A DNA stretch of 64,000 nucleotides, taken from sequence record PV806337.1; one strand, given 5' to 3'. This document shows, piece by piece, positions 34,271-45,424 of this stretch. Position 1 is the first letter of the stretch, and each line of letters starts with the position of its first letter. The DNA comes from a phage. The translations under genes and the position numbers were made by a program. The notes beneath the pieces are model-generated. The model did not search any database. It saw only the letters and a list, made by a program, of their open reading frames with translations, and had not been told where the DNA came from.

Positions 34271-34342
34271 TGCCGTCCTAGTATAATTGGTATTATCAAG
34301 CCGTAACTGGTGGAAGATGTAGGTTCGAATCCTACGGTCGGT
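34271..34342 (+). ncRNA. degenerate tRNA-like fragment (T-arm and acceptor only)
   Basis: T-arm GTAGG-TTCGAAT-CCTAC and 6/7-bp acceptor GCCGTCC/GGTCGGT, no convincing anticodon arm, no CCA. Confidence 0.3.
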
Positions 34343-34845
34343 AAGAACTGGATAACTGATGCTTTTAACATAAAAGCTTCCGAGGTTAGTTGCGCACTGC
34401 CTAAACCACGCGGTAGTTGGTTCCAGACTAACCAACCAGTCTGCTGAATAGTTTTATTACGATTTAACTATGTCCAGGCTAAAGAAGAACTTTAGAAGGT
34501 ATTCTAGGATAGTGAAGTTCTTTCTCCATATCGGAGTAGTTTTTCAAGCTATCCACAAAGTGGGAAATGCTGACATGAGAGATGTCACTAATGGTGCACA
34601 ATAGCACAGGTAATTCGCGATAACTCCTGTTGAGTAGCAGCAAAAGGTGGGAAGTCATGACCCCAAGCCTAACCGAGTCCTCAATATACCGCAGGACATA
34701 ACCACTAAGTCACCCTGACTTAAACTGGAAAATAATAGACGTTACTGTATTTTGTCTTGAAATACTTAATGAGTGAGACTTATGACTCTCCCGGTATCGT
34801 CTGTATTTTTAAGAGTTTTTACGAGAGTTCTTAAAAATACTTAAA

Positions 34846-38550: not shown

Positions 38551-38628
38551 GGTTCTCAAGCTCATATGGTATGAGCACCCGGCTCATAACCGGAAGGTAC
38601 GTAGGTTCGAATCCTCGGGGAGCCACCA
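38551..38628 (+). tRNA. tRNA with CAT anticodon (Met/fMet/Ile2), non-canonical T-stem
   Basis: Acceptor GGTTCTC/GGGAGCC with G-U pairs; anticodon loop CTCATAA; T-loop TTCGAAT with bulged stem; CCA. Confidence 0.55.
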
Positions 38629-39133: not shown

Positions 39134-39210
39134 GGGGGTGTAATCGAATTGGCATAGGTACTGGACTTAAAATTCAGGTTTTGTGGGTTCGAATCCCACC
39201 ACCCCTACCA
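39134..39210 (+). tRNA. tRNA, probable anticodon TAA (Leu), short variable arm
   Basis: Acceptor GGGGGTG/CACCCCT, anticodon stem CTGGA/TTCAG with loop CTTAAAA, T-arm GTGGG-TTCGAAT-CCCAC, CCA. Confidence 0.6.
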
Positions 39211-40352: not shown

Positions 40353-40427
40353 GCACCTTTAGCTGAGATGGATTAGCGCTTGCCTGAAGAGCTTGAGAGG
40401 TTGGATCGTTACCAACGGGGTGCTCCA
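40353..40427 (+). tRNA. tRNA-like, possibly Phe (anticodon GAA), non-canonical T-loop
   Basis: Acceptor GCACCTT/GGGGTGC, D-arm GCTG...TAGC, anticodon loop CTGAAGA with mismatched stem, T-arm GTTGG-ATCGTTA-CCAAC, CCA. Confidence 0.45.
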
Positions 40428-41456: not shown

Positions 41457-41558
41457 AATTCTGTGTAGAGTTAAGTAAACCGGTAGCCAACCAGCTATCA
41501 TTGCTGACATCGAATTCAGCCATAGATACCATTTTCGTTAATAACTGAGGAAACAAGC

Positions 41559-42457: not shown

Positions 42458-42579
42458 CAAAATTTCAGTGCAGAACACGGAGCTAGCAATTCGGAAGTGC
42501 TGACTCATGATAAGCTGCCTATGTACTTGCGAAGCGGTCGTGTCCAAGACTCGGACTCTTGCACTGAAAACAATCAAAC

Positions 42580-42700
42580 ATTCTAGCGTGGTTGATGGGG
42601 AAACCAGCTTGGCGAGGGCAGAAGCTCGTTCGATTCGAGTGAAAGAATGGTTCTCGTAAGTCCGCACAAGTGATAACAGGTTCGAGTCCTGTCTAGAATG
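42580..42700 (+). ncRNA. tRNA-like element about 121 nt, tRNA ends with expanded internal region
   Basis: Perfect 7-bp acceptor ATTCTAG/CTAGAAT, D-arm-like TGGTT-GATGGGGA-AACCA, 3' T-arm ACAGG-TTCGAGT-CCTGT, internal second T-arm-like CTCG-TTCGATT-CGAG; no CCA. Confidence 0.4.
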
Positions 42701-42711
42701 ACACTATAAAG

Positions 42712-42833
42712 TTTACTTATTATGTAGGTTCCGATAGACCGGCGGGTCTATTCTGGCATTTAAGAGAGGTCTCGCAAACTTCTTTGTCAGCCGTGGGGTT
42801 GGTAGCCTCCAGGTGGCCTACACAATAAGTAAA
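42712..42833 (+). ncRNA. structured non-coding element closed by a 17-bp long-range stem
   Basis: TTTACTTATTATGTAGG pairs with CCTACACAATAAGTAAA 105 nt downstream (16/17); internal hairpins AGACC-GGCG-GGTCT; no ORF. Confidence 0.4.
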
Positions 42834-43255: not shown

Positions 43256-43423
43256 ATGAAAGTATTTCGATTAGTAGTAAGTGACAAACGTTTAGGTAAG
43301 AATACCTCAAAATCCTTACTTGCTCATTATGGAAAAGATGAGAAAGAAGTAATGGCGGAGTTTGGGATTAATCACCCTTACTTGAAAGTTCACTCTATTA
43401 AAGAAGTATATAATGGTTACTAA
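43256..43423 (+). CDS. hypothetical small protein (55 aa)
   Basis: ATG after RBS AGAGGA between two tRNAs. Confidence 0.4.
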   Translation: MKVFRLVVSDKRLGKNTSKSLLAHYGKDEKEVMAEFGINHPYLKVHSIKEVYNGY

Positions 43424-43424
43424 T

Positions 43425-43503
43425 AGATCGCTAGCTCAATAGGTTTAGTAGCATCCGACTTTTAATCGGAAGGTTCTGGGTTCGAGTCCCAGGCGATCTA
43501 CCA
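43425..43503 (+). tRNA. tRNA-Lys (anticodon TTT)
   Basis: Acceptor AGATCGC/GCGATCT, anticodon stem TCCGA/TCGGA with loop CTTTTAA, T-arm CTGGG-TTCGAGT-CCCAG, CCA. Confidence 0.8.
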
Positions 43504-43521
43504 ATTTCAAGAAAAACGCAG

Positions 43522-43550
43522 TTGCTTGATGCTTAATTTCTTGTTATAAT
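43522..43550 (+). promoter_or_regulatory. T5-type promoter driving a structured leader and tRNAs
   Basis: -35 TTGCTT, 17 bp, -10 TATAAT; followed by GAAA-tetraloop hairpin 43564-43583. Confidence 0.65.
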
Positions 43551-43563
43551 ATTTATATAAATT

Positions 43564-43583
43564 GATGAGGAGAAATCCTCATC
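43564..43583 (+). other. GAAA-tetraloop hairpin at 5' end of a promoter-driven transcript
   Basis: GATGAGGA-GAAA-TCCTCATC, about 14 nt downstream of -10 TATAAT. Confidence 0.5.
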
Positions 43584-43787
43584 ATAGTTCACTAAGGTAT
43601 TAGCTCGACCTAGGACTGGCTACCAAAAAGCACGATCCCTACGATTTGGAGAAGTTCTAGATTAGTCCACTAGATTCAGCGGCAACTGAATAGTGTATTG
43701 GGTTTGCGAGATGACGCAGTTCCTTCCGCTCGAAGCGAAGGTGCTGTAGTTACGCCGAGCTAATAGCCTTAGTAAACTAAAGAATTT

Positions 43788-43866
43788 GGGGGATGGGTCT
43801 GCTAGGGGTGGACACCTCACTTGCACCGAGGACATCAGAACGATTCGAATTCGTTATCCTCCACCA
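43788..43866 (+). tRNA. tRNA, probable Ala (anticodon TGC)
   Basis: Acceptor GGGGGAT/ATCCTCC, D-arm GTCT...GGAC, loop CTTGCAC, T-arm AACGA-TTCGAAT-TCGTT, CCA. Confidence 0.6.
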
Positions 43867-43871
43867 AATAC

Positions 43872-43948
43872 GCGTGATTGATGGAATTGGCATACATACC
43901 GTCCTTAGAAGTCGGGTTTTGAGGGTTCGAATCCCTTGTCACGCACCA
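43872..43948 (+). tRNA. tRNA, probable anticodon TAG (Leu), short variable arm
   Basis: Acceptor GCGTGAT/GTCACGC, loop CTTAGAA, T-arm GAGGG-TTCGAAT-CCCTT, CCA. Confidence 0.55.
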
Positions 43949-44073
43949 AATTTGATGGTCAGAGTAAATTAAACCTACTATCTCGGTTGAGCTGTTTTAA
44001 TGGGTTCGAATCCCAGCGAGGCGTAACTGCCTGGTGTGATAGAGGCATCATTCCACTAACATTGGAAAAACTA

Positions 44074-44304
44074 ATGAAACGAAAATTAAAAAAGTCTTAT
44101 ATAATTAAGATAAATAAGCTACGAAGTAGGGCAAAAGGATGGCCACTTCGAATATTAATTGCGGATAACCATACTAGATACCATGCGGAACAACGTCATT
44201 ACAAACAGTGGGAGTCATACTGCCGCTCAAAAGCAGGTCGTTTAGATGGATCTTATGAGTTTCTATTTGGTAAGAAGCCTACTAGAGTAGCTTTAGGTAA
44301 TTAA
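44074..44304 (+). CDS. hypothetical small basic protein (76 aa)
   Basis: Internal ATG of track ORF 43936..44304, whose N-terminus overlaps a tRNA; weak RBS. Confidence 0.3.
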   Translation: MKRKLKKSYIIKINKLRSRAKGWPLRILIADNHTRYHAEQRHYKQWESYCRSKAGRLDGSYEFLFGKKPTRVALGN

Positions 44305-44309
44305 TACTT

Positions 44310-44400
44310 GGAAGAGCAAATCGAATTGGCGACGAAAACCGCTTGGAAAGTGGCTGACTGGTAAAACGGCTTGAGAGTTCAAATCTCTCCTCTTCCGCCA
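44310..44400 (+). tRNA. tRNA-Ser-like (probable anticodon GGA), long variable arm
   Basis: Acceptor GGAAGAG/CTCTTCC, T-arm GAGAG-TTCAAAT-CTCTC, CCA; candidate loop TTGGAAA. Confidence 0.55.
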
Positions 44401-44412
44401 AACAATTTATAT

Positions 44413-44507
44413 GGTAGGTCAATCCAATGGCTGGCGTGGGACTCCGACTTGAAATCGGTTGATCGTAGTGATACGGTGTAAGGGTTCGATCCCCTTACCT
44501 ACCTCCA
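44413..44507 (+). tRNA. tRNA-Ser-like (probable anticodon TGA), long variable arm
   Basis: Acceptor GGTAGGT/ACCTACC, anticodon hairpin CCGA-CTTGAAA-TCGG, extra arm CGTA-GTGA-TACG, T-arm AAGGG-TTCGATC-CCCTT, CCA. Confidence 0.6.
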
Positions 44508-44512
44508 AATCT

Positions 44513-44644
44513 TGAAGTATGCCGGAATCGGTAGACGGGGCTGCCTAAAAGGTTTATAGGGAACATCCACTCCCTGCAACATACCTCATAAAGCGGCTGA
44601 GATAAATGGTCTATCTCGTGAAGGTTCAAGTCCTTCTGCTTCTT
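44513..44644 (+). ncRNA. tRNA-Leu-like element about 130 nt with extra internal sequence
   Basis: 5' TGAAGTA-TG-CCG-GAATCGGTAGA-CGG resembles type II Leu D-arm; 3' T-arm GAAGG-TTCAAGT-CCTTC; acceptor 6/7 pairs; extra hairpin GAGATA/TATCTC. Confidence 0.35.
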
Positions 44645-44873
44645 GATATATCTATGGCTCAAAGTGTAACGGTGCTATTTGATGCTCTTAGTAAGACTTT
44701 CCCGACATGCGTTCGGGAGTAAGCTGCTAAGGCTAGAGTAGAAGAGTTTCGGAGAGCCGCCACAATTGAAAATTCGTACTCGTCTTGAGCTGCGCGCAAT
44801 AGGAGATAACTTGATTAGTATTCTAGAACATGCTAATTGAGGATGGTTTCGCTAACCCTGCGAGTTTTCAATT

Positions 44874-44950
44874 GTGGCTATATCATAATTGGTTAATGAT
44901 CCTGATTGTGAATCAGGCCTATGTGGATTCGAATTCCACTAGCCACCCCA
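44874..44950 (+). tRNA. tRNA-His (anticodon GTG)
   Basis: Acceptor GTGGCTA/TAGCCAC, anticodon stem CCTGA/TCAGG with loop TTGTGAA, T-arm GTGGA-TTCGAAT-TCCAC, CCA. Confidence 0.8.
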
Positions 44951-44975
44951 AATTAACTTAAACAGGAAATAAAAT

Positions 44976-45170
44976 ATGGCTGATTTCTGCAAACAATGCT
45001 CCATTGATATGTGGGGCAGAGATACTGGTGATCTTTCTGGTTTGATTACAGAAGCTGAAGTTAAAGAAGGCTACGGTGCAGTTGTAGTTTGCGAAGGCTG
45101 TGGAGTTATTCGAGTAGATCATGAAGGCAAACGTTTAGAAGAACCTGGGCCAACTACTCTAATTCCATAG
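44976..45170 (+). CDS. hypothetical Cys-containing protein (64 aa)
   Basis: Track ORF with RBS AGGAAA; CxxC...CxxC. Confidence 0.5.
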   Translation: MADFCKQCSIDMWGRDTGDLSGLITEAEVKEGYGAVVVCEGCGVIRVDHEGKRLEEPGPTTLIP

Positions 45171-45182
45171 AGTAATAATTAT

Positions 45183-45258
45183 TGGGATGTAGATCAATTG
45201 GCAGATCGTCGGCCTCTGACTCCGAAGGTTCCACGTTCGATCCGTGGCATCCCAGCCA
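45183..45258 (+). tRNA. tRNA-Gln (anticodon CTG)
   Basis: Acceptor TGGGATG/CATCCCA, D-arm GATC..GATC, loop CTCTGAC, T-arm CCACG-TTCGATC-CGTGG, CCA. Confidence 0.7.
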
Positions 45259-45264
45259 AACAAT

Positions 45265-45340
45265 TGGAGAGTAGTGTAACGGTTAGCACAACGGCCTTTG
45301 ACTCCGTTAATGGTAGGTTCGATTCCTCCTTCTCCAGCCA
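45265..45340 (+). tRNA. tRNA-Gln (anticodon TTG)
   Basis: Acceptor TGGAGAG/TTCTCCA, loop CTTTGAC (paralogous to previous tRNA), T-loop TTCGATT, CCA. Confidence 0.7.
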
Positions 45341-45348
45341 AATAATAA

Positions 45349-45424
45349 GCGGTTAAGCACACGGGTTGTGTCGCAGGCCTTCCAAGCCTCGCTGAGTAGG
45401 GTTCGATTCCCTCTAGCCGCTCCA
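45349..45424 (+). tRNA. tRNA-Gly (anticodon TCC)
   Basis: Acceptor GCGGTTA/TAGCCGC, anticodon stem AGGC/GCCT with loop CTTCCAA, T-loop TTCGATT, CCA. Confidence 0.7.

What the first reader, a model, noticed from the sequence alone, without database searches (positions are those of the whole stretch)
44513..44644. Second expanded tRNA-like gene, tRNA-Leu-like at its 5' end
The 5' part (TG-CCG-GAATCGGTAGA-CGG) resembles the D-arm of bacterial type II Leu tRNAs and the 3' part has a canonical T-arm (GAAGG-TTCAAGT-CCTTC) with a 6/7-bp acceptor. The element is about 130 nt with an extra perfect hairpin (GAGATA/TATCTC) and no encoded CCA, unlike the 24 neighbouring tRNAs.
Basis: partly seen in the sequence, partly recalled or inferred. 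Interest (0 to 1): 0.55.

Follow-up and report, generated by a model that had tools for sequence, protein, structure and literature searches.

The report
T5-type RNA1: anticodon-less tRNA-Leu mimic
This is the window's copy of phage T5 "RNA1", a long-annotated stable RNA of unknown function that is shaped like a leucine tRNA; comparison of relatives shows that the anticodon loop has been replaced by a conserved, structured arm, so it almost certainly cannot read codons.

Summary
Window 44513-44644 folds as a class II (long variable arm) tRNA-Leu-type cloverleaf with about 41 extra nucleotides in the anticodon loop, U at position 73 and no CCA. The window is a T5-like phage. The element is the homolog of T5 misc_RNA rna1, annotated "tRNA-like stable RNA with unknown functions", so it is already known.
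- In 29 distinct homologs, 15 of 42 base pairs show compensatory changes, including both helices of the insert.
- The insert's 8-nt apical loop (ACAUCCAC), the variable-arm loop and every D/T "hinge" nucleotide are invariant or nearly so.
- The positions where U33 and an anticodon should sit vary freely.

It is therefore neither a pseudogene nor a spliced decoding tRNA. ARAGORN's intron-mode call, "tRNA-Phe(AAA) with a 41-nt intron", is spurious. RNA1 keeps all E. coli LeuRS body determinants but lacks A73 and CCA.

My best reading is a non-chargeable, non-decoding tRNA-Leu body mimic, cut from the early polycistronic tRNA transcript, that presents an effector hairpin to an unknown partner. 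The partner and function are inferred, not shown. Found in passing: an apparently undescribed class of short structured inserts in tRNA-Leu(UAA) genes of other phages.

The parts
44511..44655 (+). Whole RNA1 unit, as delimited by homology to the T5 misc_RNA rna1 (T5s03). It runs from just after tRNA-Ser(UGA) to the first base before RNAI.
   Evidence: blastn of T5 rna1 against the window: 85.5% identity over 145 nt. T5 annotation. Covariance model R1 scores 177.6 bits at 44503-44655.
44513..44519 (+). Acceptor-stem 5' strand (UGAAGUA). It pairs with 44637-44643; the 1-72 pair is U.U.
   Evidence: Four of 7 pairs have compensatory changes across homologs (helix 2).
44522..44538 (+). D arm (CCG / GAAUCGGUAGA / CGG) with A14, A15, G18, G19 and A20a. 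It is preceded by U8-G9 at 44520-44521.
   Evidence: Invariant in 29 homologs. The D loop is identical to E. coli leuZ.
44539..44544 (+). Anticodon-stem 5' strand (GGCUGC). It pairs with 44593-44598 (GCGGCU).
   Evidence: 99.4% of cells paired; 3 of 6 pairs have compensatory changes (helix 4).
44545..44592 (+). The 48 nt that stand in place of the 7-nt anticodon loop (about 41 nt extra). They comprise an A-rich internal loop, lower helix I2 (44550-44553 with 44583-44586), an asymmetric internal loop, and the apical hairpin I3.
   Evidence: Rfam tRNA alignment places a 45-nt insert here. ARAGORN -i calls a 41-nt 'intron'. Compensatory changes occur in I2 (2 pairs) and I3 (3 pairs). The U33/anticodon-equivalent columns 43-47 vary.
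44557..44576 (+). Apical hairpin I3 of the insert: stem 44557-44562 with 44571-44576, and an 8-nt loop ACAUCCAC at 44563-44570.
   Evidence: Stem pairs 56-73, 57-72 and 58-71 covary (AU/UA/GC/CG). The loop GAACAUCC(A/G)CUC is invariant apart from a single A-to-G change in T5.
44593..44598 (+). Anticodon-stem 3' strand (GCGGCU).
   Evidence: helix 4.
44599..44617 (+). Long variable arm of a class II tRNA (GAGAUA / AAUGGUC / UAUCUC). U48 follows at 44619.
   Evidence: 100% of cells paired. Pair 100-112 covaries (AU/UA/CG). The loop AAAUGGUCU is invariant except for one U-to-C change.
44620..44636 (+). T arm (GAAGG / UUCAAGU / CCUUC).
   Evidence: 100% of cells paired. U54, U55, C56 and A58 are invariant. 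The T loop is identical to E. coli leuZ and leuT.
44637..44647 (+). Acceptor-stem 3' strand (UGCUUCU, 44637-44643), U at the discriminator position (44644), then GAU in place of CCA. GAU pairs with the leader AUC at 44509-44511.
   Evidence: Sequence. The outer pairs 8-144 and 9-143 are kept, and are replaced by a 7-bp extension in Klebsiella phages (helix 1).

Best explanation
The element is the window phage's ortholog of T5 RNA1. It is a structured non-coding RNA derived from a class II tRNA-Leu.

What the comparison shows:
- It keeps the complete L-shaped tRNA-Leu body: acceptor, D, variable and T arms, and all elbow and hinge nucleotides.
- Its anticodon loop has been replaced by a conserved three-helix arm that ends in an invariant 8-nt loop.
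- Its acceptor end has lost A73 and CCA.
- The structure, including the insert, is under purifying selection.
- There is no conserved anticodon and no U33.
- All E. coli LeuRS body determinants are kept, but the discriminator determinant is not.

What I infer:
- It is transcribed as part of the early polycistronic tRNA transcript.
- It is cut out by the host's tRNA-processing nucleases: RNase P at its own 5' end and at the 5' end of the adjacent RNAI, then endo- and exonucleolytic 3' trimming. Its tRNA fold makes it stable.
- It works as a tRNA-body mimic that can be neither aminoacylated nor used on the ribosome.
- The tRNA-Leu-shaped body engages a factor that recognises tRNA shape. LeuRS or a tRNA-directed host nuclease or defence protein are the obvious candidates.
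- The invariant apical loop and the invariant variable-arm loop provide specific contacts for that partner or for a second one.
For: Identity:
- The window is 98.4% identical to a Tequintavirus over the locus.
- The element matches T5 rna1 ('tRNA-like stable RNA with unknown functions') in the same order: tRNA-Ser, RNA1, RNAI, RNAIII, tRNA-His.

Structure under selection:
- 92.3% of cells paired against 37-49% in the slid controls.
- 15 of 42 pairs carry compensatory changes (0 of 500 shuffles reach this), spread over the acceptor stem, anticodon stem, both insert helices and the variable arm.
- RNAalifold independently recovers the same helices apart from the D stem, with 14 compensated pairs.

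Functional loops:
- The insert loop, the variable-arm loop, the D loop and the T loop are invariant or nearly so, while the stems turn over.
- RNA1 is only 85.5% identical to T5, whereas its neighbours are 92-99% identical.

Not decoding:
- The columns equivalent to U33 and the anticodon read CUAAA, CGAAU, CCAAU or CUAAC in different lineages.
- The Rfam tRNA score is below the gathering threshold.

LeuRS logic:
- The review PMC9976931 states that in E. coli A73, A15-U48, G18G19, A20a and the D/T tertiary pairs carry leucine identity, and that the anticodon arm and long variable arm are dispensable.
- RNA1 has all the hinge elements invariant and a D loop and T loop identical to leuZ, but it has U73 and no CCA.

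Context and distribution:
- No promoter-like site lies on the + strand in 43300-45400, and T5 annotates no promoter between P13b and P11. This fits a polycistronic precursor.
- RNAI starts at the base after the RNA1 unit and ends in a GCCA acceptor-like terminus.
- RNA1 is retained in 493 phage records infecting Escherichia, Salmonella, Klebsiella, Pectobacterium, Yersinia and Citrobacter.
- In Klebsiella phages it persists where RNAI and RNAIII are not detectable beside it.
Against: - No expression or end-mapping data were available. 'Stable RNA' rests on the T5 record's annotation alone.
- No partner was identified.
- Searches for complementarity between the invariant loops and E. coli rRNAs, the co-encoded phage RNAs or the window gave only chance-level matches.
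- In PMC11555353, only the fragments carrying tRNA-Tyr and ORF75 of a T5-like tRNA-rich region rescued phage from retrons Eco2 and Eco7. That gives no support for RNA1 as a counter-measure to those tRNA-cutting systems.
- The T5 tRNA region is a deletion hotspot, so RNA1 is dispensable on laboratory hosts (citing Glukhov 2018).
- Conservation of the hinge nucleotides could reflect only the need to fold and be processed, not LeuRS binding.
- The leader-trailer pairing leaves the mature ends uncertain.
Confidence: 0.5

Rival explanations
1. It is a tRNA gene with an intron. The roughly 41-nt insert is removed and the exons are joined to give a decoding tRNA: either Phe(AAA), as ARAGORN's intron mode calls it, or Leu(UAA), as the T5 allele's C|...|UUAAAA arrangement suggests.
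For: - ARAGORN -i calls tRNA-Phe(aaa) with a 41-nt intron at exactly 44513-44644.
- The T5-type allele reads GACUGC-C-[40 nt]-UUAAAA-GCGGU, which would give a Leu(UAA) loop if the insert were excised.
- Other phages carry canonical tRNA-Leu(UAA) genes with short inserts at 32/33 or 34/35.
Against: - The putative anticodon and U33 are not conserved: CUAAAA, CGAAUA, CCAAUA or CUAACG on the 5' side, and CAUAAA, UAAAA, GAAAAC or ACGG on the 3' side.
- 41 nt is far too short for a group I intron, and no intron or ribozyme family matches.
- The internal loops do not form a bulge-helix-bulge motif.
- From general knowledge, E. coli and T5 have no tRNA splicing endonuclease.
- The gene lacks A73 and CCA and has U.U at 1-72, so even a spliced product would not be a LeuRS substrate.
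- The insert's apical loop is invariant and its stems covary, which an excised spacer would not need.
Confidence: 0.05
2. It is purely a cis-acting processing and punctuation module. The tRNA-like fold exists only to recruit RNase P and 3' nucleases, so that the neighbouring RNAs (RNAI, RNAIII, tRNA-His) and mRNAs are released from the polycistronic transcript. The excised RNA has no function in trans.
For: - RNA1, RNAI, RNAIII and tRNA-His are packed with spacers of 0-4 nt and no promoter.
- The RNA1 unit ends where RNAI begins.
- From general knowledge, tRNA-like punctuation is a known principle in mitochondrial transcripts and in MALAT1/mascRNA.
Against: - A processing signal needs only the acceptor/T minihelix. 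It does not need an invariant 8-nt loop on a covarying three-helix arm, nor an invariant variable-arm loop.
- In Klebsiella phages RNA1 is kept where RNAI and RNAIII are not detectable beside it.
- RNAI and tRNA-His have their own acceptor-like termini.
Confidence: 0.2
3. It is a trans-acting base-pairing regulator. One of its invariant single-stranded loops (ACAUCCAC, or AAAUGGUCU with UGG opposite CCA) pairs with a host or phage RNA, for example an mRNA or the 3' CCA end of tRNAs in the manner of T-box and RNase P L15 contacts. The tRNA body serves only as a stable scaffold.
For: - Both loops are invariant.
- An AAUGG(U) stretch also lies unpaired and conserved in the insert of the sister RNA2. 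In a Klebsiella phage that stretch is nearly identical to RNA1's variable-arm loop.
Against: - No target above chance was found in rRNAs, in the co-encoded RNAs or in the 64-kb window. The best matches are 8-9 nt, which is the expected number, and they are partly buried in RNA1's own stem.
- The two loop variants seen (A67G in T5, U105C in one Klebsiella phage) give no covariation.
- Only half a phage genome and no host transcriptome were searched.
Confidence: 0.12
4. It is a decaying tRNA-Leu pseudogene that acquired a random insertion and has no function.
For: - It lacks an anticodon, A73 and CCA.
- It lies in a deletion-prone, dispensable region.
- Many depositors leave it unannotated or lay a hypothetical ORF over it.
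Against: - 15 pairs have compensatory changes and the loops are invariant across phage genera whose stems have diverged.
- It is retained in 493 records.
- The overlapping ORFs are short, use TTG starts or lie on the minus strand, and have no support.
Confidence: 0.03

Closest known systems
Phage T5 RNA1 (gene rna1, locus tag T5s03, NC_005859 30501-30644)
   Same: Homologous: 85.5% identity over 145 nt. Same gene order (tRNA-Ser(UGA), RNA1, RNAI, RNAIII, tRNA-His) and the same cloverleaf-plus-insert fold.
   Different: - The window carries a different allele of the insert and stems, with five compensatory pair swaps relative to T5.
- The window's 3' loop remnant is UCAUAAA, where T5 has UUAAAA.
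- T5 has the small ORF T5.063 between tRNA-Ser and RNA1; the window does not.
E. coli class II tRNA-Leu, especially tRNA-Leu(UAA) leuZ
   Same: - U8-G9, the 11-nt D loop GAAUCGGUAGA and the T loop UUCAAGU are identical.
- 3-bp D stem and long variable arm.
- A15-U48, G18G19 and A20a, the LeuRS hinge determinants, are all present.
   Different: - About 41 nt inserted in the anticodon loop, with no anticodon and no U33.
- U73 instead of A73, and no CCA.
- U.U at the 1-72 pair.
- A 6-bp variable stem with a 7-nt loop.
- Below the Rfam tRNA gathering score.
Phage T4 species 1 and species 2 RNAs (rnaC, rnaD)
   Same: They are small stable RNAs of 139 and 119 nt at the end of a phage tRNA cluster. 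rnaC has a T-arm-like hairpin and paired termini. From my own knowledge, their function is still unknown after decades.
   Different: There is no detectable homology: the RNA1 covariance model scores 7.7 bits on rnaC. The architecture also differs, with no complete cloverleaf around an anticodon-loop insert.
Intron-containing tRNAs (bacterial group I introns in tRNA-Leu(UAA); archaeal and eukaryotic bulge-helix-bulge introns)
   Same: Extra sequence interrupts the anticodon loop of a Leu-type tRNA gene. The T5 allele is formally compatible with an insertion between positions 32 and 33.
   Different: - 41 nt against the roughly 200 nt or more of a group I core.
- No Rfam intron or ribozyme match.
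- No BHB motif.
- No conserved mature anticodon.
- The acceptor end is not that of a functional tRNA.
Phage tRNA-Leu(UAA) genes with a CCAGUG...GGCAGCA...ACCA insert
   Same: A Leu-type class II tRNA body whose anticodon loop holds a 49-57-nt structured module, with a covarying stem and an invariant hairpin loop.
   Different: Those genes keep A73, an encoded CCA and the remaining anticodon-loop nucleotides, so they look like tRNAs that must be matured. Their insert motif is absent from RNA1. They occur in unrelated large phages.
Other non-decoding tRNA mimics (tmRNA tRNA-like domain, plant-virus 3' tRNA-like structures, mascRNA, bacterial YrlA); comparison from general knowledge
   Same: A tRNA-shaped fold is used for processing, for stability or to engage tRNA-binding proteins, rather than for decoding.
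   Different: RNA1 keeps all four arms of a class II tRNA and is a free-standing RNA in a tRNA operon. ARAGORN's tmRNA mode and Rfam give no match to tmRNA or any other family.

Membership tests
T5 RNA1 (rna1) family of T5-like phages | Sequence homology to T5 rna1 | tested here: met
   85.5% identity over 145 nt, E = 5e-43. 493 phage records match.
T5 RNA1 (rna1) family of T5-like phages | Conserved position in the tRNA cluster (after tRNA-Ser(UGA), before RNAI, RNAIII and tRNA-His) | tested here: met
   T5 feature table. Window coordinates of all T5 stable-RNA homologs.
T5 RNA1 (rna1) family of T5-like phages | Shared secondary structure (class II cloverleaf plus a two-helix insert) | tested here: met
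   Model R1 scores 177.6 bits on the window.
T5 RNA1 (rna1) family of T5-like phages | Accumulates as a stable RNA in infected cells | not testable with these tools
   Only the depositor's annotation 'stable RNA' is available.
Canonical decoding tRNA | 7-nt anticodon loop with U33 and a conserved anticodon | tested here: not met
   The loop is 48 nt. The U33-equivalent is U, G or C, and the anticodon-equivalent columns vary.
Canonical decoding tRNA | Reaches the Rfam RF00005 gathering score or is called by default ARAGORN | tested here: not met
   25.2 bits against a threshold of 29. No default ARAGORN call.
Canonical decoding tRNA | Tertiary-interaction nucleotides (U8, A14, G18, G19, U54, U55, C56, A58, 15-48 pair) | tested here: met
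   All are invariant in 29 homologs.
Canonical decoding tRNA | 3' N73-CCA end, encoded or added | tested here: inconclusive
   CCA is not encoded: UGAU follows the stem. Post-transcriptional addition cannot be tested here.
E. coli LeuRS substrate (tRNA-Leu identity) | Discriminator A73 | tested here: not met
   U at 44644 in 26 of 29 homologs. The Klebsiella versions have an A that is base-paired within an extended helix. The rule is taken from PMC9976931.
E. coli LeuRS substrate (tRNA-Leu identity) | Hinge determinants A15-U48, G18G19, A20a and the D/T-loop tertiary pairs | tested here: met
   Invariant columns A25, T117, G28, G29, A31, T123, T124, C125 and A127. D and T loops are identical to leuZ.
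Group I intron in a tRNA gene | Catalytic core (P3-P9, about 200 nt or more) detectable by a covariance model | tested here: not met
   The insert is 41-45 nt. There is no Intron_gpI hit or any ribozyme hit, even at E up to 5.
Archaeal/eukaryotic-type tRNA intron | Bulge-helix-bulge motif at the exon-intron junctions, and a conserved mature anticodon loop after excision | tested here: not met
   The junction loops measure 5 x 6 nt and 1 x 4 nt, not two 3-nt bulges on opposite strands 4 bp apart. No excision gives a consistent 7-nt loop across alleles.
tmRNA | tRNA-Ala-like domain plus a tag reading frame | tested here: not met
   ARAGORN -m finds none. There is no Rfam tmRNA match at the locus.
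   The motif is absent from all 29 RNA1 homologs. RNA1 lacks A73 and CCA. For the class itself.

The most novel reading that the evidence does not exclude
RNA1 is a dedicated 'dead' tRNA-Leu: a non-chargeable decoy or adaptor that titrates or redirects a host factor recognising the class II tRNA-Leu elbow, such as LeuRS or a tRNA-directed immune nuclease. The invariant apical loop would act as a second, specific binding site.

On this reading RNA1 is the degenerate end-point of a wider, so far undescribed phage habit of planting structured RNA modules in the anticodon loop of tRNA-Leu genes. LeuRS ignores the anticodon arm, so tRNA-Leu is uniquely tolerant of this. The intact members of that class (A73 and CCA kept, insert ending in ACCA) would then be either a new kind of protein-dependent bacterial tRNA intron or chargeable non-decoding tRNAs.
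Probability: 0.2. Interest if true: 0.75.

Novelty: already known. Interest (0 to 1): 0.4.

Why it matters
T5-like phages are model phages and are widely used for therapy and biocontrol. Their tRNA-rich region is now known to hold counter-defence functions: tRNA-Lys against PARIS, and tRNA-Tyr and ORF75 against retrons. About 0.8 kb of that region encodes seven "stable RNAs of unknown function", which most genome annotations ignore or cover with hypothetical ORFs.

This analysis shows that RNA1 is under strong structural selection. Its anticodon has been replaced by a conserved effector arm, and it keeps the LeuRS body determinants while lacking the acceptor determinants. That turns a 40-year-old annotation into concrete experiments: LeuRS binding and inhibition, partner pull-down, and loop mutants tested on natural hosts.

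It also warns annotators that intron-mode tRNA finders produce a false "tRNA-Phe" here.

Tried and rejected
- Spliced tRNA: rejected. There is no conserved anticodon or U33, the insert is too short for a group I intron, there is no BHB motif, and A73 and CCA are missing.
- Pseudogene: rejected on covariation.
- tmRNA or any Rfam family: no match, even at permissive E-values.
- Base-pairing targets of the invariant loops in 16S, 23S and 5S rRNA, in RNA2, RNAIV, RNA2H, RNAI, RNAIII and RNA3, and in the whole window: only chance-level matches. One example is 8 nt next to the sarcin-ricin loop, half of which is buried in RNA1's own stem.
- Intramolecular kissing between the variable-arm loop (UGG) and the insert loop (CCA): only 3 bp are possible and the two loop variants seen do not covary. 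Left open, not supported.
- Anti-retron decoy: not supported by the published fragment screen.
- Dependence on RNAI or RNAIII: rejected, because RNA1 persists in Klebsiella phages where they are not detectable beside it.
- More distant homologs: a variable-arm/T-arm bait returned only the same T5-like contigs. Two Vibrio Demerecviridae tRNA regions hold only ordinary tRNA-Leu genes. The bacterial and archaeal genome scan gave 45 chance matches, and the model hit only two ordinary-length tRNA-sized stretches there.
- Homology to T4 rnaC or rnaD: none.
- blastn of RNA1 halves against E. coli genomes: no match, because the queries are too short for that database. Replaced by direct comparison with leuT and leuZ.
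- Literature searches for T5 RNA1 function, a T5 small-RNA transcriptome, or short phage tRNA introns found nothing specific. The T4 genome review is not held.
- Three GC-rich IMG/VR loci (L133, L135, L136) and 92 of the 112 CCAGTG...GGGGCAGCACC hits were discarded as chance matches in coding sequence.
Full report
**Observation.** It has a 7-position acceptor stem with one U.U mismatch, U8-G9 and a 3-bp D stem around GAAUCGGUAGA. It also has a perfect 6-bp hairpin GAGAUA/UAUCUC and a canonical T arm GAAGG-UUCAAGU-CCUUC, and UGAU follows where CCA would be. Default ARAGORN finds 21 tRNAs in the window but nothing here. Rfam finds nothing here in a 14-kb scan. Scanned alone, the Rfam tRNA model aligns to exactly 44513-44644 at 25.2 bits, below its 29-bit gathering score. 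That alignment has a 45-nt insertion in the anticodon loop and a 19-nt variable-arm insertion. ARAGORN in intron mode reports 'tRNA-Phe(aaa), 41-nt intron' at the same coordinates. The minimum-free-energy fold of the single sequence is the same cloverleaf but is only marginally better than shuffles (z = -1.96). The case therefore rests on comparison with relatives.

**What it is.** The window is a T5-like phage, 98.4% identical to Escherichia phage HildyBeyeler (Tequintavirus) across this locus. A 151-nt query around the element matches 493 phage records. In the T5 reference genome the matching interval is annotated as misc_RNA rna1, product 'RNA1', note 'tRNA-like stable RNA with unknown functions'. 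It is followed by rnaI, rnaIII and tRNA-His. All seven T5 'stable RNAs' have homologs in the window:
- RNA3 at 41459-41531
- RNA2 at 42579-42703
- RNAIV at 42722-42824
- RNA2H at 43598-43768
- RNA1 at 44511-44655
- RNAI at 44656-44762
- RNAIII at 44767-44872

The element is therefore already known as an annotated feature. Its function is not known. I found no paper in the held library that addresses it.

**Anatomy.**
- Acceptor stem: 44513-44519 with 44637-44643.
- D arm: 44522-44538.
- Anticodon stem: GGCUGC (44539-44544) with GCGGCU (44593-44598).
- Anticodon loop: 48 nt (44545-44592) where 7 are expected. These form an A-rich 5 x 6 internal loop, a lower helix AGGU/ACCU, an asymmetric internal loop, and an apical hairpin (44557-44576) with the 8-nt loop ACAUCCAC.
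- Variable arm: 44599-44617.
- U48: 44619.
- T arm: 44620-44636.
- Discriminator position: 44644, a U.
- The leader AUC (44509-44511) can pair with the trailer GAU (44645-44647).

**Comparative evidence.** I aligned 29 distinct homologs: the window, T5, IMG/VR T5-like contigs, three Klebsiella Sugarlandvirus phages and a Pectobacterium-phage type.
- For the structure above, 92.3% of cells form standard pairs, against 37-49% when the 3' partners are slid by 1-3 columns.
- Fifteen of 42 pairs show changes on both sides, a number reached by 0 of 500 shuffles. They are distributed as acceptor 4, anticodon stem 3, lower insert helix 2, apical insert hairpin 3, variable arm 1 and outer extension 2.
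- RNAalifold independently recovers the same helices, except that it draws an alternative D stem. It finds 14 compensated pairs.
- The loops are frozen. The insert loop GAACAUCC(A/G)CUC, the variable-arm loop AAAUGGUCU, the D loop and the T loop are invariant or nearly so.
- The columns that would hold U33 and the anticodon are not conserved: CUAAA, CGAAU, CCAAU or CUAAC. The 3' remnant of the loop also varies: CAUAAA, UAAAA, GAAAAC or ACGG.
- RNA1 is the most diverged of the window's stable RNAs relative to T5, at 85.5% against 92-99% for its neighbours. About half of its differences are compensatory pair swaps. One Klebsiella phage (L123) carries a recombinant of two insert alleles. The stems therefore turn over or are exchanged between lineages while the fold and the loops are held.

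**What it is not.**
- Not a pseudogene, because of the covariation.
- Not an intron-bearing decoding tRNA. No excision yields a consistent 7-nt loop or anticodon across lineages. Forty-one nucleotides cannot hold a group I core, and no intron or ribozyme family matches. The junctions do not form a bulge-helix-bulge motif. The acceptor end lacks what a tRNA-Leu needs.
- The ARAGORN intron-mode call of tRNA-Phe(AAA), which at least one deposited genome appears to have adopted (H70), is therefore spurious.
- Not tmRNA.
- Not homologous to T4's species 1 and 2 RNAs, which are the closest classical analogues.

**Relation to tRNA-Leu.** U8-G9, the 11-nt D loop and the T loop are identical to E. coli tRNA-Leu(UAA) leuZ. 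According to the identity review PMC9976931, E. coli leucine identity rests on A73 plus the hinge elements: A15-U48, G18G19, A20a, and the pairs G18:U55, G19-C56 and U54:A58. [quoted passage not shown] RNA1 has every hinge element invariant. It has U at position 73, no CCA and a U.U 1-72 pair. In other words, it keeps what LeuRS and other shape-reading proteins see on the body, and it has lost what is needed to be charged.

**Distribution and context.**
- The family is confined to enterobacterial T5-like phages. A bait made of only the variable arm and T arm returns the same 27 T5-like IMG/VR contigs.
- The covariance model finds only ordinary tRNA-Leu genes in the tRNA regions of two Vibrio Demerecviridae.
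- Nothing RNA1-like turns up in one genome for each of 185,579 bacterial and archaeal species. That scan gave 45 chance pattern matches, and the model hit only two ordinary-length tRNA-sized stretches there.
- There is no promoter-like site on the + strand between 43300 and 45400, and T5 annotates none between P13b and P11. RNA1 must therefore be cut from a long early transcript.
- RNAI begins at the base after the RNA1 unit and ends in an acceptor-like stem plus GCCA.
- RNA1 does not depend on RNAI or RNAIII. Klebsiella phages keep RNA1 (and RNA2) without detectable RNAI or RNAIII beside it.
- RNA2 is built on the same plan: a class I tRNA-like body whose anticodon loop is replaced by a module of about 54 nt.
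- The T5 tRNA region is a deletion hotspot, so these RNAs are dispensable on laboratory hosts.

**Mechanism.**
- Shown: a conserved, structured, anticodon-less tRNA-Leu-shaped RNA gene with an effector-like arm.
- Inferred: excision by RNase P and 3' nucleases, stability through the tRNA fold, and action as a non-chargeable, non-decoding tRNA-body mimic that binds a partner through the Leu-type elbow and the two invariant loops.
- Candidates for the partner are LeuRS or a tRNA-directed host nuclease. tRNA-cutting defences that act on T5-like phages are well documented. However, the one published fragment screen credits only tRNA-Tyr and ORF75, and I found no base-pairing target.
- Probabilities: about 0.9 that this is a functional structured ncRNA that does not decode; about 0.5 for the full mimic/effector-arm account; about 0.2-0.3 for any specific partner.
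- Rivals: a pure cis-acting processing module (0.2), a base-pairing regulator (0.12), a spliced tRNA (0.05) and a pseudogene (0.03).

**Side finding.** The first pattern scan combined a Leu-type D loop, 80-110 nt, and a T loop. It returned about 100 non-T5 viral contigs, most of them carrying Leu-type tRNA bodies with 30-80 extra nucleotides.
- One coherent class comprises 17 contigs in two sub-types, each an otherwise canonical tRNA-Leu(UAA) gene with A73, an encoded CCA and a 15-nt variable arm.
- Each carries a 49-57-nt insert either between positions 32 and 33 or between 34 and 35.
- The insert contains CCAGUG, a covarying 5-bp hairpin with an invariant GGCAGCA loop, and always ends in ACCA just before the remaining loop nucleotides.
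- Rfam has no family for it, and I found no description in the held literature.
- RNA1 lacks this motif but shares the design: a Leu body with a structured hairpin in the anticodon loop. The T5 allele of RNA1 reads C-[40 nt]-UUAAAA at the same 32/33 junction. RNA1 may therefore be a degenerate descendant of such a gene. This is a lead, not a result.

**Verdict.** The feature is already known as T5 RNA1, but its function is uncharacterised. Interest is moderate, at 0.4. It is not a surprise to a T5 specialist. The structural-selection result and the LeuRS-determinant pattern do make an old open question testable, and the wider insert class deserves its own follow-up.

Noticed in passing
IMG/VR loci L100 9207-9342(-), L028 1324-1459(-), L264 3967-4102, L268 3923-4056(-), L212 4247-4380, L073 7383-7519, L266 3253-3385(-), L277 10894-11037(-), L216 2668-2799 and others: Canonical phage tRNA-Leu(UAA) genes (A73 and CCA encoded) carry a 49-57-nt structured insert in the anticodon loop, at 32/33 or 34/35. 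The insert has invariant CCAGUG, a covarying hairpin with an invariant GGCAGCA loop, and always ends in ACCA. It is too short for a group I intron and has no BHB motif. I found no Rfam family and nothing in the held literature. It may be a new kind of bacterial or phage tRNA intron, or a chargeable non-decoding tRNA.
   Followed up: partly
IMG/VR loci such as L101, L021, L029, L035, L039, L041, L110; L094, L068, L119, L120; L091, L064, L086; L011, L036, L052, L027, L057, L079: Several further families of Leu-type tRNA-shaped RNAs occur in unrelated viral contigs. They have an acceptor stem, the GGAAUUGGUAGAC D loop and a T arm, but 70-99 nt between the D and T arms with no recognisable anticodon stem. 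Most end in A-CAA or A-CGA rather than CCA.
   Followed up: partly
Its anticodon loop is replaced by about 54 nt holding a T-arm-like hairpin (CUCG-UUCGAUU-CGAG) and an unpaired GAAAGAAUGGUU. In a Klebsiella phage (L128) this stretch reads AUAAAUGGUCUC, almost identical to RNA1's invariant variable-arm loop. A similar GGAUGGUUU occurs in RNAIII. This may be a shared single-stranded AAUGGU motif; its significance is untested.
   Followed up: partly
window 44656-44762 (RNAI) and 44767-44872 (RNAIII): Two more T5 'stable RNAs with unknown functions' fill the whole gap between RNA1 and tRNA-His. RNAI has a GGCUC/GAGCC terminal stem followed by GCCA, like a tRNA acceptor end. RNAIII has a 12-bp terminal stem and folds well (z = -2.8). 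RNAIII is 99% identical to T5, RNAI 92%.
   Followed up: partly
window 39134-39210 and 43872-43948: Both decoding tRNA-Leu genes of this phage (UAA and UAG, each with A73-CCA) are 77 nt long with 5-nt variable loops. That is a class I shape, whereas T5's own tRNA-Leu(UAG) is an 85-nt class II tRNA. RNA1 is thus the only Leu-type body with a long variable arm in this cluster.
   Followed up: partly
window 44511-44655 versus flanks: RNA1 is a local divergence hotspot: 85.5% identity to T5 while RNAIII, RNA2, RNA2H, RNAIV and RNA3 are 97-99% identical. At least six insert and stem alleles circulate, and one recombinant allele occurs in Klebsiella phage vB_Kpn_3 (L123). This suggests allele exchange or diversifying pressure on the stems, with the loops fixed.
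   Followed up: partly
window 34272-34343, 38551-38625, 40353-40424, 45348-45421, 43788-43866, about 44310-44400: Default ARAGORN misses these tRNA genes. The first four are found by Rfam. tRNA-Ala(UGC) appears only with a relaxed ARAGORN threshold. tRNA-Ser(GGA) is annotated in HildyBeyeler and T5, but neither tool calls it in the window.
   Followed up: partly
GenBank records matched: Annotation of this locus is inconsistent across deposited T5-like genomes. Most records leave it blank, several lay 'hypothetical protein' ORFs over it, and at least one shows 'tRNA-Phe' under the match (H70). Some of the 'tRNA-Ser' labels listed under the match may simply belong to the adjacent tRNA-Ser(UGA) gene, whose last bases lie inside the query. 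Only the T5 reference names RNA1.
   Followed up: no
L124 (Klebsiella phage AmPh_EK80) 385-1000: In Sugarlandvirus phages RNA1 sits in a non-coding stretch of about 650 nt between tRNA-Val and a rho-independent terminator. Its acceptor helix is extended by 7 further base pairs. The flanking non-coding sequence contains other hairpins and may hold further uncharacterised RNAs.
   Followed up: no
L142 14325-14745; L024 3837-4428: Large structured RNAs of unknown function sit inside phage tRNA clusters: GOLLD, annotated in a Vibrio T5-like phage, and ROOL, immediately upstream of an insert-bearing tRNA-Leu in an IMG/VR contig.
   Followed up: no
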